64,000 nucleotides of DNA from Lytechinus pictus (taxonomy: Eukaryota), in NCBI RefSeq assembly GCF_037042905.1, contig NC_087251.1:9984001-10048000 (forward strand), in the 5' to 3' direction. Below, piece after piece: positions 33,367 through 56,721 of this stretch. The position numbers and the translations under genes are program-made. The notes under the pieces were generated by a model. That model had not been told where the DNA came from, searched no databases, and was given only the letters and a program-made list of their open reading frames with translations. Every line of letters starts with the position of its first letter. Within the stretch, counting starts at the first letter, position 1.

Positions 33367-34062
33367 GTAAGTATTCATGCCATTTTCATTTGAATTCTTA
33401 ACCTGGATATCAATATAACCCAATATGTTAAATTACATTATAAATCATTTTGGGATAAAGATGTGAGAATAGATAGGTTGCTCTTATTGTTTAATGAATT
33501 TTATGTACATTGAAATACATGTTTTCAGTTACAGATGATTCTTAATTTCCATGAGCAAAGGCTATTTTCTTTTTATTATTTTATTGTCATGATTTTTTGA
33601 AAATCAAATATAGTATGGAATATAATTGCCTGCTTTTCATATCATTGATTGGATTACTGTATCAGACATCCTTTGGTTTTTCAAGGTAAATAAGAATTCA
33701 TCATTCACCATCCCTTGACAGATTGCCAAATGATATCAAGCTTTCATGTTTAGATGAACATTCAATGACACCCAGTTACCATGACGGTTTCTGTGCATCT
33801 GACTAAATGTTAAATCCCTTGTTTGCAATTATTATAATGGTACTCATGATTCCACTCACAGTAGAAATACAAGAGCCCTTCAGTTTAGGAGTTTTATCCA
33901 GTGTTCCCAGTAATTATAGCAAAGTGTGTAACAAACTAACAGAAATTAAACATTTACTGTTTGTAAAAGTTAGTAATATTTGATTGCTTTTGATATCGGA
34001 TAACTGAGTTTTGTGTGAGAATCATCAAGACTGGAATGCCATTTATTATTTTCACTATACAG

Positions 34063-36680
34063 ATACCAGACAAGACACTTCTCCATCATCATCCAAAAAA
34101 CTGGTTCTATCAAAGAGTCTAGGAGACAAGAAGGAATCTAACAGAGACTCTGGAATCGGTAGCATGAATCTCTCTGAACATCTTAAGCTTGATTCTGAGG
34201 ATAAGAGCAGCGCTGATGAGGCCAAGGCTGGAGATGGTAGGACAGGAAAGAAGAGGGGTGGAGCAGTAAGGAAACGAGAGAATGGGATCAATAGACAAGA
34301 TGGTTTGGATGATACAGAAGAGGAGGAAGGGGAAGGAGCTAAGGGAAGTGAAGGAGAGAGTCCTGATGAGTTGGAAGCCTTGGAGCAGCTCTCAGACGAT
34401 AATCATCTTGATAGAGATCCTCTCCTTGACATAGAGCTATCTCCCAAGCCATCTAGAAGAAGCTTGAGCACTATTCATGGTCCAGAGCTCTTTAAACTGA
34501 GAAGAGTTAATCTCAAGGAGTACCGTCCACTCAATGATAGATTCAGCAAAGACCATGATGATGTCTGGGTTCCTATGACAAGCAAAACATTTGGCAGAAA
34601 TCGCTCATTCTCGCACATTCCAACGAGACCTCAGAGTGCAGACGTCGCCACCCATCCACACTTCCAGAAACTTAGACTCTCAAGGACACGCAGTGATGAC
34701 AGTTCTCTCCATACTTGGGCAGAGCTGGCTAAATGCCGATCAGATCCAAATATCACAGACCACAAATCGGATCTTGGGGATTCCATAAAGAGCAATAATG
34801 GGAAGGAAACTGCTCTTGGCTCATCTGCATCTACGTTTGGGACAGGGGATGGGGACCTTTCTTCTTTGTCATCTCATGAAAACCTTACAGACTCCATCAA
34901 CATGGCTTTCCAACAGCTAGGGGCCAAGTATGCTGCCAAGGCTGAAAGTGAGAGTGGGAACTCTACACCTTGTTATAATGAAGAAAAAGTCAGAGACTCT
35001 GAAGCTGCAACACGGAAGGAGAAAGTATCAATTATTTTAAATGATGAGGATATACTGCTCCTGGACAAAGAAGATACAGAGTCTTCACACAAGGACTTTA
35101 GTAATGAGACATGTTCAACCAAAGATGATGATGATGATACTTCATTTGATTCACCAGAAGAGGAGGAGCTCAATGCTGCAAAGAAGAAGGTGCAGAGGCT
35201 GGCTAGAAAATATAGTAAAATGATCAAACATCAACAACAGCAGTCTACTATTGTTGTCACTAGGAAGAACAGTGAGTCTTCATCTTCAGAAAATGATGGG
35301 AAGCAGGTTGCTTGGGCCGTTACACACGGTCAGGGTGGAACTGTCATTAAACGCTTTGAGATCGACAGCCCTTCTGGTTCCTTGAAAGGAAATTCTGTCA
35401 GCAGGTCGACCACAGATTCTGAAGATGATAGATCCAGTGGCTCAAGACGTTCCATTACTCGAGGAGCACAGAACAGGAAATCTGTCAGAGACTTTGTTCG
35501 GAGATTTGAAGTCACAAAGTCAACTAAACCAGAGCCCAAAGTTGTAACACCTGTTCAGGATGGAATCAAGGAAAGACTCAAGAGCTTCCAACAGGAAACT
35601 AAGCAACCTAATAAATCTCCTCAACACCGATCAAGTATGGGATTCAAGAAGTTGTCAGAGAGGAGAAAGGAACTTGAAGAATGGGTAGCTAAACCCAAAC
35701 AGAGGTCTCGTCATAACTCTGAAGGTAAAGACTCTACTGATGGTCTTTCATTCAGCAGCAGTGCTTCAGATGCTGGTGATTTATCATTCACCTTCAACAG
35801 CAGTTATCAAGGTAGCTATGCATCTAGCTTACATAGCAGCGGACGCAGCTCTCCATGCATTGAAGCTCGTATTGCTAACATCAATGCTATCAAGGATGGT
35901 CTTTTGGAATCCATTAGTCGCTTGACCAGCCATGGGAGTGCCACTGAAGATGAAGAAGTGACTCCGGCTATGTTCAAATCCATCCGAGAAAGATTCGAAG
36001 AGCTTGAAAAGGCTGCCCACAAACCCATCCCCAAAACAGTCAGTGATCCTCAGGAGGAGATTAAAGGCGGTAGTGTGGTTGAAGGTGATGATGATGATAC
36101 TATTCAAGATATTACAGACATTCACTCTTGTGGAGAAACTGACACAAATACAACCCTTCCAAATCTTGATCTCGATCTTCCATTTCCTGAAGTCTTTGAC
36201 ACATCGTCCAGTGAACTATCGGCAATGGGTTTGAAATCTTCAGAATCTCTCAATACCCGTCTTGATGCGCTCGATATATCTAGTGACAATTCTGCATCAG
36301 ATGCCAAGCAGTTCTCATCATCCTCCGACCTTCTCTTTCCAGAGATTGAAAAGTTGGAAAGTGGACCACCTGTTTCAGAGACAGCCTCTACCAAGCCTGT
36401 CAGCAATGTAGAGATCACTACGGCCAAGCTATCAGATTCATGTCATCAGGTAAGCTTGGAGATTTCCCTGACATCCAAGAAGAGAGAGTCTGCTCATCCA
36501 ACCACCCTGGATGTTCTTTCACTCTATGAAGGACTGTCAGAAGAGGAACAGAAGATGTTGTCTCCAGAGCCCGCCCTCAACAGGTCAGAGTCTTCCGAGA
36601 GCAGCTACAAAGATGCCATCTCTGTCAGTCTGACTTCTCCTACTTCTGAGGATTATGTCACCGCACCGGAGGAGCACTAA
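34063..36680 (+). CDS. PLEKHG1: PLEKHG-family terminal coding exon (2.6 kb), long S/D/E/K-rich probably disordered C-terminal tail
   Basis: Lies within the 889-aa ORF 34011-36680. The tacag acceptor (AG at 34061-34062) gives a phase-1 entry in the ORF frame; stop TAA ends at 36680. Contains KVQRLARKYSKMIK, resembling the recalled vertebrate PLEKHG1/3 motif KVYxLARQYS. Confidence 0.88.
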
Positions 36681-46302: not shown

Positions 46303-48353
46303 ATCTTGTCAAGTTGTATCACAGTTGAAAATATAGTGTACATTTGCAGCAAAGGCAAATATTCCAATATGTGAGGCAAATTTCTTGGGATCACAGAAAC
46401 GCATGTAAGACTTACAAGGAGAGATATATGTAAACAAAATACCACATTTTGCATAATATTCTTATTCTGGTCAAAATAATTGCTTCGACTTTGGACATTA
46501 ATTGACTGATGGAAAGTTGACTTATGCAGACTAAATTGTACTCTAACAGTGATTACTGGTAAGACAAGTACAAGTTTTCTTTGATAATGCTATGCTCTTT
46601 TGGCTATGGCTACTGAATAAAGAAATGGAGGGGGAAGTACACATACATGTACTTCATCGAAGCGGGCATATCGACTTATAGCAACATTGCATGACTTCAA
46701 GGATTGCATGACTTCAAGGATTGAAAAGAGTTCTCTGTTTTACTAGGGGAGGAAGGCATTATCTTTTGTGGGGGCACATCATGTTACCTTTTCATATTCT
46801 CCAATAGTCATACATGTACATGTGTGTAATGATTCAGAAATGAAATCTGCAGCATTTTTCACTATTCCAGGCGATAATACAATTTTCTGGAAAAAAAAAA
46901 TCTCTACCGAGATCAAACTCACAGATGACTGCAAGATTTTAAAATGACATACATGTATGGCTAATTGGTAACTGCACCCCCTTCAAGTAAAAATATTTCC
47001 AGAAAATTTGAACATGAAACAATTCAACACCATGTTGTTCACCTCTGACTTTAGAACCAGGTAAAATTGACGATTGATTATTCATCAAAAAGTTGACGCT
47101 ATGGACTCCTGAGAATTTTTAATTCGCACAACGAAGATAATCTCTGGGTGTTATACATTGAAGGTGATAATGTACCACAAATCTGAGAGGACAATATACA
47201 TGTTTTTAATACATTTACTTCACAACAATTACAGATAATCAGTTCACACATGACACTTGAGGTAAACCACAATAAAATGGTGTTGCTATATTTCTGCTTA
47301 GAAATCAGATCAGTGGAGCTTTTGTGCGGTAATTTTTCCCTTCAGCACCTTTCATTTATTTCAGCAGTTTTAACCCTGTGTTCAGAATATTTTCTGGAGG
47401 GAAGGAAATCCCCCATGCATACATGTAGGAGAATCCCCCCCCCCAATTCTTGTAGTTTTTGACGATGCAGTCCCTCTTTATAAAGGGGTTTATGATCCAA
47501 TATTTGGAAAAGAGATTGACCCTGAGTGAAAATTGATGTGGCACAGCTGTTTTCATTGATGTGTGTGAAAAGCGGTGCAGGGATGACATCCCGACAAGTG
47601 CAGTATGATCCCCATATATATAATTTGCATATTCTCTCTACCGCTCAGAGTCTGCGTCCGAGCGGTGGAGACTGGCATATATGCTTGATCATACAATGAA
47701 TAAGCTTGGGAAGAACTTCCTCTTCACTCACGTATTAGTCTGAATGAGTCGGAATGTTCTTCATCCCTGCAGCAGCCTCTTTCAGACAATAACTAGAAGA
47801 CATAAAACACTGCATACGTATAGTCCTATTCTGATGTAAACCTACATCACTTGGAATTGCATACCAGAACCCCATACTGAAACCAAGCTTAAAAAAAAAC
47901 CTCTTGAACAGTTGTGTTTTGACATCTTGATTGCTCCATCCCATATCTTCTCAAACCACCTTAAAACCACCCAAGGGTTCATTACATGCTGCCGCGCACA
48001 GAAAAATCAAGCCATAGAAGTCGTGTGTTGTGGACACCAGAAGTGAGATCCCAGCACGCGCAGTCCACTAGTTAGAAATCCACTGCCAAACGCGGTTCAT
48101 GGTTCGAGGTTAGTATACTAATACTAACCTCGCGAGGTTAGTATACTAATACTAACCTCGCAATACGTGTGAGTGCTTAAAACTACAAGCCATGTGCAAA
48201 TATTCTTATAAGTTCAACTTAAACTTCCCAAAGGTGCTAACTACAAAATATAATATAAGTTTGCTATATACAAGATATATAAATATAACAAGAATTATTG
48301 TTCTATCTAAAACTTTACAAAGATAAAATGAGTTTGAAGAATGTTCAGCAGCA

Positions 48354-48719
48354 TCATATGTTACCAACTATTACATGTTCCTCCATGCCTTCGCTTTCTG
48401 TGATGAGAGCTCGTTCTAAAATCACTTTGCCTTCCTTGTACCTCTGAGATTCCTCTGTGGCAAATTCATAGATCCAACCAAGTTTTGAGTCACAGTTCTT
48501 GCAGAAGACATCTCGTACCATGTGACGTCCAGTTAACATGATCCTATCTTGGACCTCACTAAATGAGAGGTTGACCACTCGTTTGAAGAGGTATGCACGA
48601 CCCGTTGACCCTGTAAAGCGAGTGGACATTAGTTCTGCCCTGTTGGTCAGTACAGTATCACAGTTTGCACAGGAGAACAATCTTGTACCTCCTATATGCT
48701 CAAGGAAAACTCGCCCCAT
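48354..48719 (-). CDS. YPEL5: Protein yippee-like 5, copy A, 121 aa, uninterrupted CDS
   Basis: [20 protein letters not shown]...[14 protein letters not shown]...[17 protein letters not shown]: typical YPEL5/Yippee sequence with both CxxC pairs. A 5'UTR splice acceptor (ttccccag, minus strand) opens the exon at 48742. Confidence 0.96.
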
Positions 48720-49332: not shown

Positions 49333-50929
49333 TCCTTTCACAGGATAGATAGTCTCCTTTACTTGTACATTTTGATTAAAAAGAAAAGAGCTCACAACTA
49401 AGATGGAAAAGAAATATACTTTTGATTGAATGCACTATTCACAATTACCAAAGCAATGTATTGATAGTGTGAATTTTGTAGAGGGTAGCATATAACTATC
49501 ATTTTATTTCTAGTTGTATACAATGCTACATTATGGGTAATAAATCTAAGACAAACCTACATGTATCTTTGTTTAGCACATTTTGCAACAAAGTTGAAAA
49601 ATTATAAGTTTAGTGGTAGAAAATAAAGCAGCAACTCAAATTAATCAATCATCAAACCAAATGGGAAATAAGTGAAACTATATGAGACGCAAAATGAACA
49701 GAACTGCAACCGATGGAGTCTGGTAGTGCACTGTTTAATCTCTGGGCTACTTTTCCTCAGCTAAACTCAGAATCACATAAATAATTTACATATATTGAAA
49801 TCAAGTAGAGTCAACCAATCAAAAACAATTAATGGAAGGATCGAACTAAAATGTAAGCATCCAATTCATAAAATAAACCAATAAGGAATGAGACGAAGAT
49901 GACAACAATGTCTGAGGATTATGTAATAATGGAAGTAGAAATTATGGAGTCAGGTGATCGAGGGATGGAATGAGTGGAACACCTGAAGAGAGAATAGAGA
50001 AGGAATGAAGATGACAAAAGAGAATGAGAGGAAAGGCATTCAGACTAGAATGAATGACAACTGAATATCATTAAACTCAAATAACCTAAGTTCAGACAGC
50101 AAGGGCAGTGCTGAAAAGAAATGCAAATGAACTCGCGTCTAGACTGAACAGACATAACAGCTGAAGAGACCACAAGTCAAAGGAAATAAACAAAATAGCA
50201 AAATGACAAAATAACCATCCTACATTTTGATCCCATTACATGAACTGAAGAAGTCTAGTGGAGGCCCTATAGCTAATCTCTTGATTGCATAATTTCATCG
50301 GACTTATTATATTAAATTATAATTTGGCAAACTTCAAAGCCTGATAACACATGACCCTATCTGAAATATATGTAAATCTAGAGTCTACAGTACAGTACAT
50401 ATTTTTCCCTAGGCCCGCCGCCCCGGCCCTAGGCTATCTATATACATGTACATGATGTAGGTTGTATTCCCGGGTTGTATTATCCAAAGACCAAACTATT
50501 ATGACATGTCAGACTTCCAAACAAACCTGACTGACACAATTGCAGCAGCCTCTGTGCAAAGTAAATTTCATTTTTACATTGATACCACAAACAAAAGTCA
50601 CAAAGGCAGCAGGAAGTACATGCAACTGCAAGTCGAGTTTCAATCCCAGTCAGATAAACCCACACACACAGCACAGCTGATCATTTCACAAAGGCAGGTA
50701 CAGACTACAGTCACAAGTGTGCCTGGGCTTACCAGATCCAAACAGAGCAGAAAGAAACACAGATCTTGGAGTACAAAAAACGTTCCCAATTATCATTTAG
50801 ACATTATTGTGATACACCTGTAAACTTACATGTACTTACACTATCATACAACTGTCTTTAGGCCTTCGTCTGCTCTGCCTTTTCAAGTAAAGACTGGAAT
50901 GATGGTTATTAATTGCAGCCAGCTACCAC

Positions 50930-51300
50930 CTAGTACACATATCGCCGATCCGATCGCGAGCTATAATTGGGCAGGCCACATAGGCACGTCAGTGTACTCA
51001 GCTCTGTGTACGATCAATCGAGATCGAGAATTACTTCCGCAAACATACGGTGACATCATCATCGTCGGTTTGGCTCATAACAAAACCACGTGCTCAGCAG
51101 CGCGCCAATCGCACGCTTTGGCGCGTTTAAATGGTCATTATTATGCAAGAATAAATTATTTCGGATGAAAGAGTGAATTACAAGTTGAAACAAGCAAGTT
51201 AACAAATGGAAACCTCTAGCAAACTGCCCGCATTAATAACGAAATTATCGGTGCGGGGAAGGGGGGGGGGGGGGAAGTGCGGGCGCACCTTGTAAAAGTA
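50930..51300 (-). promoter_or_regulatory. Candidate promoter / first-exon region of YPEL5 copy A
   Basis: Local CpG enrichment in CpG-poor DNA, CCAAT at 51105, CACGTG at 51087, TGACATCA at 51051, ACTTCCG near 51033. A minus-strand donor-like site CTG|GTAAGC follows 50733. TSS not determinable. Confidence 0.45.
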
Positions 51301-51595
51301 CTAAAATTATAGATGTATGACTATCGATTCAGCCATTACCCATTAGCTAAAATGCGCTTACTTGTGAGTGACGACTTTTTTGCTTGCTTGTCCCTATGAG
51401 GCGCCGAATGTACCAATATTATATAGAACAATTATTTGTTATATAATCATTATTTGTTAAATAATAACTATTATTTATATATAATTTACATTTTATTTGT
51501 AAATAACTACTATTATATAAAATATCATTTCTAATTATTTATATATAATTCCAAGTAATACTTCATTATTTGTAAATAATAATAGTTCGACATTC

Positions 51596-51936
51596 CATTA
51601 TTTATAAATAATGATTATTTGTTTTTCATTATTTATAAATAATGATTATTTGTTTTTCATTATTTATAAATAATGATTATTTGTTTTTCATTATTTATAA
51701 ATAATGATTATTTGTTTTTCATTATTTATATATAATGATTATTTGTTTTTCATTATTTATAAATAATGATTATTTGTTTTTCATTATTTATAAATAATGA
51801 TTATTTGTTTTTCATTATTTATAAATAATGATTATTTGTTTTTCATTATTTATAAATAATGATTATTTGTTTTTCATTATTTACAAATAATGATCATTTG
51901 TTTTTCATTATTTATAAATAATGATTATTTGTTTTT
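51596..51936. repeat. 31-bp tandem array (11 full units) in the left arm of the foldback element
   Basis: Unit CATTATTTATAAATAATGATTATTTGTTTTT; unit starts counted every 31 nt. Confidence 0.9.
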
Positions 51937-54704
51937 CATTATTTATAAATAATTTGTTGAGTTTTCCATTATTTATAAATAATGATTATTTGTTAAATAA
52001 TGAAAACGTCTACTTCATTATTTATAAATAATTTTTTCGAGTGCACCATTATTCTCATTATTTATAAATAATCATTATTTAATGTTCGAGTTTTCCATTA
52101 TTTATAAATAAAGATTATTTGTTAAATAATGAAATATCTACTTCATTATTTATAAATAATAATTTTGTTTCAATATCCCATTATTTATAAATAATCATTA
52201 TTTATAAACAATTTTTACAGTTTGCCATTATATACAAATAATCATTATTTATATACAAATAACCATTATTTATTATATAATGCCATTATTTATTAAATAA
52301 TGCCATTATTTATTAAATAATGCCATTATTTATTAAATAATAGAAAACTCGCTATAACATGCAAATGTGGGACCGCCCATGATATGAATATTCATGATGC
52401 GATTTCCTTTTTCGTGATTTTTCTTCACAAATTTTTGTCCATTTCCTCTTCATAATGACATTTCTTGAAGCAATTTTCTAGGGATATGGTCTGATTGTAA
52501 TATTCTTCATTTTCTATATAACTTCGTCTTCGTAGAAATATCAAAAAGTGTAATTTTATACGATTTTTCCTACAGTTCACAATCCCCATAGGCGCGCGTG
52601 TACGGTAGGGACAACCGGTGAATCGACGGAGTGCTCTTCATCGAAATACTACGTTGGTTGGTCCCCGGAAGTGGCGGGCGGAATTTAGCCCGAATCCTCG
52701 ATGGAAGTCGATCAAGTGCATATGAGCTGAGAGAGTGAAATATCAGTGTACTTGTACAGGCCCTTCTACTTTTTATAAATATTTCTTGTTGCTTTTTTTG
52801 TTAAGTTAATTTTTCCTGGTGTAGAGATAAGTTTCAGTTCTAATAATGCACTTCAAATACATTTTGGAGTGTCTGTTTGAGGCGTTTGGGGCGATTTCAC
52901 CCTGGCCCCAAAATGCTCGCAACGACAATACGGGGGCATGATGACCCCTAAATTTTTAAAAACTTATTTTTCTATTGAAAATTATCACAAAATTCACCAA
53001 AAGTGTGCACGAAAGCCTTCGTATTTCACTTTTAAAACTCCGAAAAGTGCCCAAATGACAAGCTTGGTCGCTTCGCTGTGTCGCTTTCAACTTGAGAACG
53101 TTTACGCGTCTGCTCCCCCCCCCCCCTCCTCCGAAAGAAATTCTGTATACGGCCATGCTCTAAAGAGCCTGGCACATTGATTTATATGTACTTTTCATTT
53201 TCATTATTTTTATCACATTATCATCATGGCCTTACACAGAATTTTTACCGGGGGGGGGGGGGCAGCTAGGACGCGCGTAAAGTTTCTCAAAAAAATCTTG
53301 AAAGCGAGACAGCGACGCGACCAAGCTCAAATGACAAGCTTGGTCGCTTCGCTTTCTCAAGATTTTTATGAGAAAGTTTACGCGCGTCCTGCTCCCCCCC
53401 CCCCCCCCCCCGGAAAAAATTCTGCGTAAGGCCATGATGATAATGAGATAAAAATAATGAAAATGAAGTATACATAAATCAATGTGCCAGGCTCTTTAGA
53501 GCATGGCCGTATACAGAATTTCTTTCGGAGGAGGGGGGGGGGGGGAAAGCAGACGCGTAAACGTTCTCAAGTTGAAAGCGACACAGCGAAGCGACCAAGC
53601 TTGTCATTTGGGCACTTTTTGGAGTTTTAAAAGTGAAATACGAAGGCTTTCGTGCACACTTTTGGTGAATTTTGTGATAATTTTCAATAGAAAAATAAGT
53701 TTTTAAAAAATTAGGGGTCATCATGCCCCCGTATTGTCGTTGCGAGCATTTTGGGGCCAGGGTGAAATCGCCCCAAACGCCTCAAACAGACACTCCAAAA
53801 TGTATTTGAAGTGCATTATTAGAACTGAAACTTATCTCTACACCAGGAAAAATTAACTTAACAAAAAAAGCAACAAGAAATATTTATAAAAAGTAGAAGG
53901 GCCTGTACAAGTACACTGATATTTCACTCTCTCAGCTCATATGCACTTGATCGACTTCCATCGAGGATTCGGGCTAAATTCCGCCCGCCACTTCCGGGGA
54001 CCAACCAACGTAGTATTTCGATGAAGAGCACTCCGTCGATTCACCGGTTGTCCCTACCGTACACGCGCGCCTATGGGGATTGTGAACTGTAGGAAAAATC
54101 GTATAAAATTACACTTTTTGATATTTCTACGAAGACGAAGTTATATAGAAAATGAAGAATATTACAATCAGACCATATCCCTAGAAATTGCTTCAAGAAA
54201 TGTCATTATGAAGAGGAAATGGACAAAAATTTGTGAAGAAAAATCACGAAAAAGGAAATCGCATCATGAATATTCATATCATGGGCGGTCCCACATTTGC
54301 ATGTTATAGCGAGTTTTCCATTATTTAATAAATAATGGCATTATTTAATAAATAATGGCATTATTTAATAAATAATGGTTATTTGTATATAAATAATGAT
54401 TATTTGTATATAATGGCAAACTGTAAAAATTGTTTATAAATAATGATTATTTATAAATAATGGGATATTGAAACAAAATTATTATTTATAAATAATGAAG
54501 TAGATATTTCATTATTTAACAAATAATCTTTATTTATAAATAATGGAAAACTCGAACATTAAATAATGATTATTTATAAATAATGAGAATAATGGTGCAC
54601 TCGAAAAAATTATTTATAAATAATGAAGTAGACGTTTTCATTATTTAACAAATAATCATTATTTATAAATAATGGAAAACTCAACAAATTATTTATAAAT
54701 AATG

Positions 54705-55014
54705 AAAAACAAATAATCATTATTTATAAATAATGAAAAACAAATAATCATTATTTATAAATAATGAAAAACAAATAATCATTATTTATAAATAATGAAA
54801 AACAAATAATCATTATTTATAAATAATGAAAAACAAATAATCATTATTTGTAAATAACGAAAAACAAATAATCATTATTTATAAATAATGAAAAACAAAT
54901 AATCATTATTTATAAATAATGAAAAACAAATAATCATTATTTATAAATAATGAAAAACAAATAATCATTATTTATAAATAATGAAAAACAAATAATCATT
55001 ATTTATAAATAATG
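54705..55014. repeat. 31-bp tandem array (10 full units, inverted) in the right arm of the foldback element
   Basis: Unit AAAAACAAATAATCATTATTTATAAATAATG, 310 nt in total. Confidence 0.9.
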
Positions 55015-56721
55015 GAATGTCGAACTATTATTATTTACAAATAATGAAGTATTACTTGGAATTATATATAAATAATTAGAAATGATATTTTATATAATAG
55101 TAGTTATTTACAAATAAAATGTAAATTATATATAAATAATAGTTATTTAATAAATAATGATTATATAACAAATAATTGTTCTATATAATATTGGTACATT
55201 CGGCGCCTCATATGTCCCCGGGCCTTTTCTAGTTTTTCCAGGGGACTGCGAGACGAACTGTCCTGTTATTTTTCGCTGGAGACCCTTGTTTATTTTTTGA
55301 TTTTTTTTTGCTTATCTAGATTCCTGGGAAACAAATTGCAAAATGGCCTTTAATTTTTCTTTGCTGAAGTACCTTGTATTTTTTAATTTTTATTTATCAT
55401 TATTATGTATTTTATTGTTATTATTATTTTTTTGAAGTTTTGCTCTTTATGCTATCACGCCAATTTACACCCTGTAAAAGTTCGAATCTGAAACCGCCCT
55501 TGCATTCGATATGTTGCATCATGTGACATTGGAAAATAATTTTTTATTTTTCTACAAGCTCTAATATACAATGCAACTAATAGTCCAAGGCAATTGAAGT
55601 GCAATGCCAGTGGCCACTCTTATTGCCCTGGGAACTGGATATTCCTTTTATATAAGCTTCATGAAATATGAAAACAACTAAGATGAATCATTTTTCAAAA
55701 TTAGATAAAAACATATTTGATAACTAAACTCTAATTTCATTGACCTAAAAAAACATGTGACCTTAGCTAAGAAACACATCTGATAACCATATCAGTTTTA
55801 TTTCATTTGATAGTTTTATCAGTAAATTGATCTGAAATTACATTTTACCTTGACCCAGTGACCTATCTCAGGCCAAATAATAAGTTAAAAGTTTCATCAA
55901 ATACTTTCATCAAGGTCTTTATGCTTTCATAGTTATGCCAGTTCAAAAACTTAACCTTGGTTAAGTTTCTATGTTGATGTTGCTGCCTTTGGATACATCA
56001 TCCCAAATCATCTTAAACATTTTTTTTCTCTGTACAATACATTCAAAGAATTATCAGTATCCAACTCGTAACTAGACTATAATTCAGGGGCAAGTTGTCA
56101 GGTACAGATCCTCTCCAAATGAAGGCATCATGCTCATAGAATGATGTTAAAGGAAAATAATAAATTCAAGTTCTCTCTTGCCAATACATCAGTATCACAA
56201 AAATCTTGATCTCGCTAATTTTGCATTTCTCTTAATCTTTTCTTCATTCCACAATCCCCATGGTCCCGTAAACTTCATTTTATGTTATCTTATCATAACC
56301 ATAAGACATTCAAAGATCATCAAGTCACTTCTGTTGGACCTATCTGTTGAGACATTCCCTAAATATATCAGTTTGCTTGTAATTTTCTACCCCACCCCTT
56401 GAAAAAAATAAAACAAAAGCAACGTAACATAAATTTGTTAAATTATCTGTAAAAATGACAATCGTTCTATTTACACTACAGGTACGATACATGCAAATAA
56501 ACAAAATGGAATCTGGAGATGTGTGTATATATAAATATATATATATATATAGAGCCTACATCCTACGAAAGGGCGAAGTCTATGAATGGGTTTATTCCGT
56601 CATAATACACATAAAGACGTTAAGACGAAGGTAGAGGGCATTAAGGCGCATCACAAACAACAAAAGAAGACAAAAAAATTTGCCTTAAACTCAGATGTAG
56701 AGAAATTATATATATATATAT

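What the first reader, a model, noticed from the sequence alone, without database searches (positions are those of the whole stretch)
51389..55218. Giant almost spacer-less palindrome with a 6-bp TSD and TATGAGGCGCCG termini: unassigned foldback element
Seen: 3818 bp whose two arms (1933 and 1876 nt) pair almost to the centre, leaving only a 9-nt spacer (CAAATGACA, 53328-53336), with a perfect TGTCCC duplication and no recognisable protein. Known: Drosophila FB and sea urchin TU elements have modular long TIRs (repetitive outer domain, unique inner domain), but as I recall they make 8-11-bp TSDs and often carry a middle segment; 6-bp TSDs with long TIRs typify Polintons/Mavericks, whose termini start AG-rich, unlike these. 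Inference: a recently inserted non-autonomous member of a family whose transposase is not identifiable here, able to form a cruciform or ~1.9 kb of dsRNA if transcribed.
Basis: partly seen in the sequence, partly recalled or inferred. Interest (0 to 1): 0.8.

Follow-up and report, generated by a model that had tools for sequence, protein, structure and literature searches.

The report
Gene-less hairpin IS3EU-type transposon, sea urchin
This 3.8-kb gene-less repeat in a sea urchin genome is almost wholly a mirror image of itself; its ends and 6-base landing scar match the little-studied IS3EU transposons, whose enzyme likely moved it, and RNA from this repeat family carries strand-specific A-to-G changes that likely come from editing of double-stranded RNA, which makes it a tidy variant of known foldback elements rather than a new kind.

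Summary
In detail: 51395-55212, arms of 1933 and 1876 nt (1852 matches, 17 substitutions, 9 indels), 9-nt spacer, exact TGTCCC duplication, no coding sequence. The host is a sea urchin. 'Unassigned' does not hold: TA..TA ends with a 6-bp duplication are the published hallmark of IS3EU/GingerRoot, and Polinton fails. Independent runs hold the family at 99-100% identity, with other flanks joined exactly at 51395. The spacer is likely left over from duplication of a 276-bp hairpin core, now inverted. In an RNA run, 224 of 296 variant places are A>G or T>C, and the four best sites absent from DNA split by strand, as ADAR editing predicts. Not shown: the empty site, other copies' duplications, the partner transposase, or transcription of this copy. 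Unchecked scan notes describe similar IS3EU-type hairpins elsewhere in this genome; I could not confirm they are the same family. New variant of a known kind; interest 0.33.

The parts
51389..51394 (+). Left target-site duplication TGTCCC
51395..53327 (+). Left arm (long TIR, 1933 nt), beginning TATGAGGCGCCGAATG
   Evidence: other flanks join at exactly 51395 in runs X1 (1 contig) and X24 (25 reads of mixed sequence)
51422..52341 (+). AT-rich repetitive outer domain: 14 x 31-bp array (51562-51994) whose unit contains the perfect 18-bp palindrome CATTATTTATAAATAATG, degenerate repeats, about 6 x 20-bp units (52223-52341). Candidate secondary transposase-binding sites (inference from Galileo).
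52342..53048 (+). Non-repetitive inner domain, with no ORF of note; 52962-53033 matches a far more abundant repeat in runs X2 and X13
53049..53324 (+). Core unit 1 (276 bp): an imperfect hairpin (76 matches, 19 substitutions between its own arms) around a 69-bp asymmetric loop at 53158-53226, the likely ancestral middle of the element
   Evidence: (family D13)
53328..53336 (+). 9-nt apex spacer CAAATGACA, a direct repeat of 53052-53060; in the other runs 53-100% of depth or reads have C at 53327, which restores the 12-mer found at 53049
53337..53613 (-). Core unit 2, inverted relative to unit 1 (loop 1 against reverse-complemented loop 2: 61 matches, 3 substitutions; direct: 33 matches, 29 substitutions)
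53337..55212 (-). Right arm (long TIR, 1876 nt), with a 13 x 31-bp array at 54647-55048, ending CATTCGGCGCCTCATA
55213..55218 (+). Right target-site duplication TGTCCC

Best explanation
This is a gene-less 3.8-kb palindromic repeat with TA..TA ends between two copies of a 6-bp target, likely a young non-autonomous IS3EU/GingerRoot-type DNA transposon that a transposase encoded elsewhere cut and pasted as one unit, and transcripts of its family likely fold into about 1.9 kb of double-stranded RNA that ADAR edits. Steps: (1) shown: mirror arms, TA..TA ends, 6-bp duplication, no gene. (2) Shown at family level: many near-identical copies and different flanks at the same boundary. (3) Inferred: an IS3EU transposase acting in trans recognises the ends, with the 31-bp palindromic arrays as possible extra binding sites. 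(4) Inferred: the TIRs grew inward by arm-to-arm copying until only a 276-bp hairpin core was left; that core was duplicated in tandem and one copy was flipped or overwritten, leaving the 9-nt spacer as a remnant of arm sequence. (5) Shown in one RNA run, for the family and not this locus: A-to-G changes that follow the RNA strand; attribution to ADAR is inferred.
For: [quoted passage not shown] Chance of the 6-bp match is 5e-4. Run X1 has contigs of 196, 253 and 368 aligned nt with 1, 0 and 1 differences, and a centre-junction contig at depth 44 against about 90 on the arms, as expected for one junction per two arms. Loose ends with other flanks begin at 51395. Core duplication: direct repeat at 53049/53325; a joint 53325 to 53051 in X13 (depth 60.7, 51 letters on the short side); 11 X24 reads that continue past 53358 with unit-1 sequence; a strand-switch joint 53064/53320 in X2 and X13. 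Arm homogenisation: 0.40% outer against 5.9% inner divergence. Editing: A>G at 103 and T>C at 121 of 296 variant places in RNA run X24 (76%), against 24%, 29% and 23% in three DNA runs. Site 52808 A>G is in 10 of 10 reads of one mate direction and 0 of 7 of the other; 52841, 52852 and 52870 T>C are in 16 of 18, 16 of 19 and 19 of 22 against 0 of 10, 0 of 11 and 0 of 12; all four are absent from the three DNA runs. Library strand was calibrated on the minus-strand YPEL5 exon, and both classes read A-to-G on the RNA.
Against: No transposase was found or linked to these ends; no genome is held. The 6-bp TSD rests on one copy. The ends read TATGA, not the fungal TAYGG, and the TIRs are more than ten times the 100-150 bp of GingerRoot. 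The empty site was not seen. No record spans the locus, and the X1 centre contig has only 26 letters beyond the start of the spacer (31 are needed to call it bridged). The window's exact sequence right of the apex is rare in X1 (depth 5 at 53358-53393). Joints were called at 82% likeness and may come from related repeats. The RNA and DNA runs are different individuals with different organism labels, only 40 of about 415 variant rows were shown, and one shown A>G site (52502) occurs in both read directions and in DNA. Almost no RNA reads cover this locus's left flank (depth 0-0.27 at 51229-51355), so there is no sign that this copy is transcribed from the left.
Confidence: 0.8

Rival explanations
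1. Same element class, but the apex is an older 212-bp hairpin MITE (53225-53436, CATGGCC..GGCCATG), and the arms were extended by conversion until they met it; no core duplication.
For: The inner pair is only 87 matches with 7 substitutions and 4 gap runs, and it has MITE-like ends. Both alleles at 53236 and 53247 occur in runs X2, X13 and X24, so the two halves come from older variants. An unchecked note on a similar element reads it this way (e1-9209898).
Against: It does not by itself explain the direct repeat at 53049/53325 or the direct-tandem joint and reads in X13 and X24. The 212-bp segment shows no depth excess over the arms.
Confidence: 0.3
2. The true ends are TGAGGCGCC.. and the TSD is TA (Tc1/mariner-like MITE); the TGTCCC pair is chance or an earlier duplication.
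For: Loose ends at 51395 include the TA, so they cannot separate a TA terminus from a TA target.
Against: It needs a coincidental 6-bp duplication right beside both TAs (about 5e-4), while IS3EU predicts exactly this pattern.
Confidence: 0.04
3. The spacer is the 9-bp TSD of a nested 267-bp Mutator-like MITE (53061-53327). This was my first reading of the centre.
For: CAAATGACA flanks 53061-53327 on both sides, and that segment has inverted ends.
Against: There is no depth excess on the segment in X1, X2 or X13, and no varied flanks at its ends among the loose ends shown (23 of about 273). Much of the depth has C at 53327, which breaks the supposed terminus and extends the direct repeat to 12 nt.
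Confidence: 0.07
4. The palindrome is an assembly or library fold-back artefact.
For: No spanning long read was available; hairpins trouble assemblers (general knowledge).
Against: The arms differ at 17 bases and 9 indels. For the 8 of the 17 substitutions that appear in the shown rows, the right-arm base is the majority in independent run X1. The sequence returns to unique flank after a 6-bp duplication, and a junction contig exists in X1.
Confidence: 0.03
5. A Polinton/Maverick remnant.
For: 6-bp TSD and long TIRs.
Against: Polinton termini are AG-type (PMC6839031); no polymerase or integrase trace.
Confidence: 0.02

Closest known systems
IS3EU/GingerRoot superfamily (PMC10045372: passages, supplement passages and part 16 of 18; PMC6839031 and PMC12730594: passages)
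   Same: TA..TA termini, 6-bp TSD, TIRs, and a GC-rich target (4 of 6 bases, one site only).
   Different: TIRs of 1.9 kb against 100-150 bp in GingerRoot, modular and repeat-filled; practically no interior; no transposase; TATGA rather than the fungal TAYGG. My searches found no IS3EU foldback in print.
Foldback elements: Tetris of Drosophila virilis, FB, sea-urchin TU (PMC4079207: passages and section 17; TU details recalled only)
   Same: Long modular TIRs with a tandem-repeat outer domain and a unique inner domain; non-autonomous.
   Different: Tetris has 8-10-bp TSDs and a middle domain, and most foldbacks are assigned to Mutator; here the TSD is 6 bp, the ends are IS3EU-like and the middle is replaced by a duplicated core. 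Sequence relation to TU elements was not testable.
Galileo 2-TIR and recruited-TIR copies, Drosophila mojavensis (PMC3573991: passages)
   Same: Non-autonomous copies made almost entirely of TIR; TIR growth by tandem-repeat expansion and by recruiting internal sequence; arms differing in repeat number.
   Different: P superfamily, 7-bp TSD, TIRs up to about 1.26 kb; no 9-nt apex seen in the passages read.
Palindromic Harbinger repeats of Xenopus as ADAR hyper-editing targets (PMC5625713: passages)
   Same: A self-complementary DNA-transposon family that yields edited dsRNA without a neighbouring inverted copy; the same paper lists hyper-editing in purple sea urchin.
   Different: About 200 bp against a 1.9-kb stem; different superfamily.

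Membership tests
IS3EU/GingerRoot | TA..TA termini | tested here: met
   TATGAGG..CCTCATA; boundary at 51395 in other runs; criterion
IS3EU/GingerRoot | 6-bp TSD | tested here: met
   TGTCCC on both sides, chance 5e-4; one copy only
IS3EU/GingerRoot | Terminal inverted repeats | tested here: met
   1933/1876 nt, far longer than the published 100-150 bp
IS3EU/GingerRoot | Mobilised by an integrase-like DDE transposase of the IS3EU clade | not testable with these tools
   This copy encodes none; no genome is held in which to seek an autonomous partner; unchecked notes report IS3EU transposases in this genome
IS3EU/GingerRoot | TAYGG..CCRTA ends of the fungal TET+ families | tested here: not met
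   Ends read TATGA; the motif is stated only for rust-fungus families
Foldback (structural class) | Long modular TIRs with tandem-repeat outer and unique inner domains | tested here: met
   definition
Foldback (structural class) | Middle domain between the TIRs | tested here: not met
   9 nt only, itself a repeat of arm sequence
Mutator-type foldbacks (Tetris) | 8-10-bp TSD | tested here: not met
   Exactly 6 bp; criterion
Sea-urchin TU elements | Sequence similarity to TU TIRs | not testable with these tools
   No TU sequence or primary paper in the library
Polinton/Maverick | AG-type termini | tested here: not met
Polinton/Maverick | Polymerase and integrase genes | tested here: not met
Tc1/mariner MITE | TA target duplication, TA at the empty site | tested here: inconclusive
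   Empty site not seen; the 6-bp duplication argues against

The most novel reading that the evidence does not exclude
In this urchin lineage IS3EU transposition itself copies one arm onto the other, so whole-element palindromes are regenerated at each jump rather than arising as rare repair accidents. The family would then be a mobile source of kilobase-long dsRNA, and this copy, about 0.3-0.4 kb upstream of the YPEL5 start, would alter that gene's expression.
Probability: 0.12. Interest if true: 0.62.

Novelty: new variant of a known kind. Interest (0 to 1): 0.33.

Why it matters
It extends the foldback architecture, mostly tied in print to Mutator and P/Galileo, to the barely studied IS3EU group. 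It also offers a young family with defined ends for finding and assaying an IS3EU transposase. The family's hairpin RNAs are a natural long-dsRNA substrate for ADAR in echinoderms. Each ingredient has precedent (foldbacks, TIR recruitment, edited palindromic repeats), so a specialist would find it neat rather than surprising.

Tried and rejected
No own genome is held, so copies, TSDs and partners could not be tabulated. BLAST of the element against the rest of the window gave no hit at E 0.01. Metagenome scans: the 32-nt terminus gave 0 hits; the 20-nt terminus gave 1 hit, L001, with nothing alike beyond those 20 nt, rejected as chance. The 3-mismatch terminus at 49681 has no matching inverted end nearby. 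Sequence look-ups in earlier findings were blank. Pfam gave 3 sub-threshold hits among 16 element frames; Rfam gave none. The look-up of sequencing runs listed no RNA holder on record, which is no evidence either way; 5 of its 24 runs were laid (X1, X2, X5, X13, X24). The nested-MITE reading of the spacer was dropped. Flank-against-flank BLAST showed no enclosing element. Literature: searches found no description of this family or of an IS3EU foldback. Repbase, Dfam and the 1980s TU papers are outside the library, so a catalogued family is not excluded. Supplements other than that of PMC10045372 were not opened and could list non-autonomous long-TIR IS3EU families.
Full report
Observation. The element spans 51395-55212 (3818 bp) between two TGTCCC hexamers, with arms of 1933 and 1876 nt around CAAATGACA. 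The arms align with 1852 matches, 17 substitutions and 9 indels. Two random 6-mers of this window agree at 5.0e-4, and the duplication cannot be extended. Each arm has an AT-rich outer domain with a 31-bp array (14 copies left, 13 right) whose unit holds a perfect 18-bp palindrome, then a unique inner domain. None of 16 scanned frames, out of 49 of 35 aa or more, reaches a Pfam cut-off, and Rfam is blank.

Host and setting. The neighbouring 121-aa protein is 98-99% identical to YPEL5 of Strongylocentrotus and Lytechinus, so the host is a sea urchin. RNA run X24 covers the YPEL5 coding exon, and also 50467-51101 with a peak at 50848-50974, in one mate direction only. Two GTAAGT donor motifs lie on the minus strand near 50820-50840, and CpG is enriched at 51000-51250. 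The insertion therefore likely sits about 0.3-0.4 kb upstream of the YPEL5 start (inference). A second YPEL gene lies at 62890-62121 on the same strand.

Is it mobile and real? No genome is held, so I laid public runs on two parts of it. Run X1 holds contigs with 0-1 differences over 196-368 nt, so its copies are nearly identical to this one. One X1 contig and 25 X24 reads of mixed sequence leave the reference exactly before 51395, which marks the boundary and shows other insertion sites. X1 has a centre-junction contig at depth 44 against about 90 on the arms, though it does not meet the tool's bridging rule. For the 8 arm substitutions that appear in the shown rows, the right-arm base is the X1 majority, and several left-arm bases also occur in other runs, so the arm differences are real alleles. 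The tool warns that summed depth is not copy number; I claim only 'many copies'. I did not see the empty site or a second TSD.

Classification. I recalled TA ends with a 6-bp TSD as an IS3EU trait and then checked it. PMC10045372 (passages; supplement) states that complete IS3EU families always have TA..TA termini and usually 6-bp TSDs, and unites them with GingerRoot. PMC6839031 (passages) gives 72 of 77 TA..TA, GC-rich 6-bp TSDs, 100-150-bp TIRs, and AG-type ends for Polintons. PMC12730594 (passages) gives TAYGG..CCRTA for fungal families, which this element matches at 4 of 5 positions. The element thus has IS3EU-type ends on a foldback body as defined in PMC4079207 (passages and section 17). 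Membership is shown for ends and TSD only; the enzyme is inferred.

The centre. The spacer also occurs at 53052 and, inverted, at 53602. A 276-bp unit starts at 53049 and its beginning is repeated at 53325. The unit is an imperfect hairpin around a 69-bp loop, and the second unit is the mirror image of the first. I first read this as a nested MITE with a 9-bp TSD. One search argued against that: no depth excess, and C at 53327 in all of X1's depth, 58% of X2's, 53% of X13's and 17 of 29 X24 reads, which lengthens the direct repeat. The same call shows a direct-tandem joint (53325 to 53051, X13), 11 RNA reads continuing with unit-1 sequence after 53358, and an arm-to-opposite-half joint (53064/53320, X2 and X13). 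An old apex hairpin is the main rival. Arms differ by 0.40% over the outer 1763 nt and 5.9% over the inner 170 nt (P=2.4e-7). This fits arm-to-arm copying that stops short of the apex, as proposed for TIR recruitment in Galileo (PMC3573991, passages). These joints were called at 82% likeness and could come from related repeats.

RNA. Prompted by note e1-7811427, I laid stranded RNA run X24 (about 6% of it read) on 52350-53400. A>G and T>C make up 224 of 296 variant places, against 10 of 42, 36 of 123 and 36 of 160 in three DNA runs. The four shown A>G or T>C sites that are absent from all three DNA runs split fully by read direction (Fisher P from 5e-5 to 8e-7), and with the YPEL5 strand calibration all four are A-to-G on the RNA. 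This is what ADAR editing of a fold-back transcript predicts; alleles would not split by strand. Limits: different individuals and organism labels, 40 of about 415 rows shown, and reads cannot be assigned to a locus. Coverage of this locus's left flank is near zero. Precedent exists in palindromic frog Harbinger repeats, and hyper-editing is listed for purple sea urchin (PMC5625713, passages). The computed fold of 53000-53660 is a single hairpin with a 9-nt loop.

Novelty. Searches of the held library found no IS3EU foldback and no description of this family, but Repbase, Dfam and the original TU papers are not held. Within this scan, unchecked notes describe several IS3EU-type hairpins of 3.4-27 kb and autonomous IS3EU elements in the same genome. 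Sequence look-ups were blank, so I cannot say which, if any, is the same family. Verdict: a real, young, non-autonomous IS3EU-type foldback element with a duplicated core and family-level evidence of edited dsRNA; a new variant of a known kind, interest 0.33.

Noticed in passing
window 48354-48719 (-) and 62890-62121 (-): Two tandem yippee-like genes flank the element: YPEL5 with a single coding exon, and a paralog with a split coding region about 79% identical to S. purpuratus YPEL5. Read-through from the paralog could reach the hairpin 6.9 kb downstream (untested).
   Followed up: partly
window 50820-51250: Likely YPEL5 5' exon and CpG-rich promoter with a CCAAT box at 51105; minus-strand RNA reads and two GTAAGT donor motifs.
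   Followed up: partly
window 47968-48175: A repeat of about 210-216 bp just 3' of the YPEL5 stop, very high-copy in X2 and X5, absent at this site in both runs (joint skipping 216 bp with 8 letters fitting either side, a possible TSD). It holds a 2 x 28-bp near-palindromic tandem at 48105-48160.
   Followed up: partly
window 49613-50202: A high-copy repeat of about 590 bp in the YPEL5 intron, skipped in contigs of X2 and X5; no terminal inverted repeat found.
   Followed up: partly
window 52962-53033: A short part of the inner domain matches a repeat about 100-fold deeper than the rest of the element in X2 and about 50-fold in X13, but shows no excess in X1, so the inner domain likely contains a piece of an abundant MITE-like family.
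   Followed up: no
window 51395-51590: In run X2 the terminus is about 7 times deeper than the inner domain (9305 at 51456 against 1288 at 52808), hinting at other elements that share these ends.
   Followed up: no
window 52359-52395: An octamer motif ATGCAAAT and the near-palindrome TATGAATATTCAT at the start of the inner domain; the octamer label is recalled and no function is shown.
   Followed up: no
window 3333-36680 (+): Exons of a large gene that looks like a RhoGEF (DH/PH-type; label recalled, not tested), ending in an 890-aa open frame at 34008-36680.
   Followed up: no
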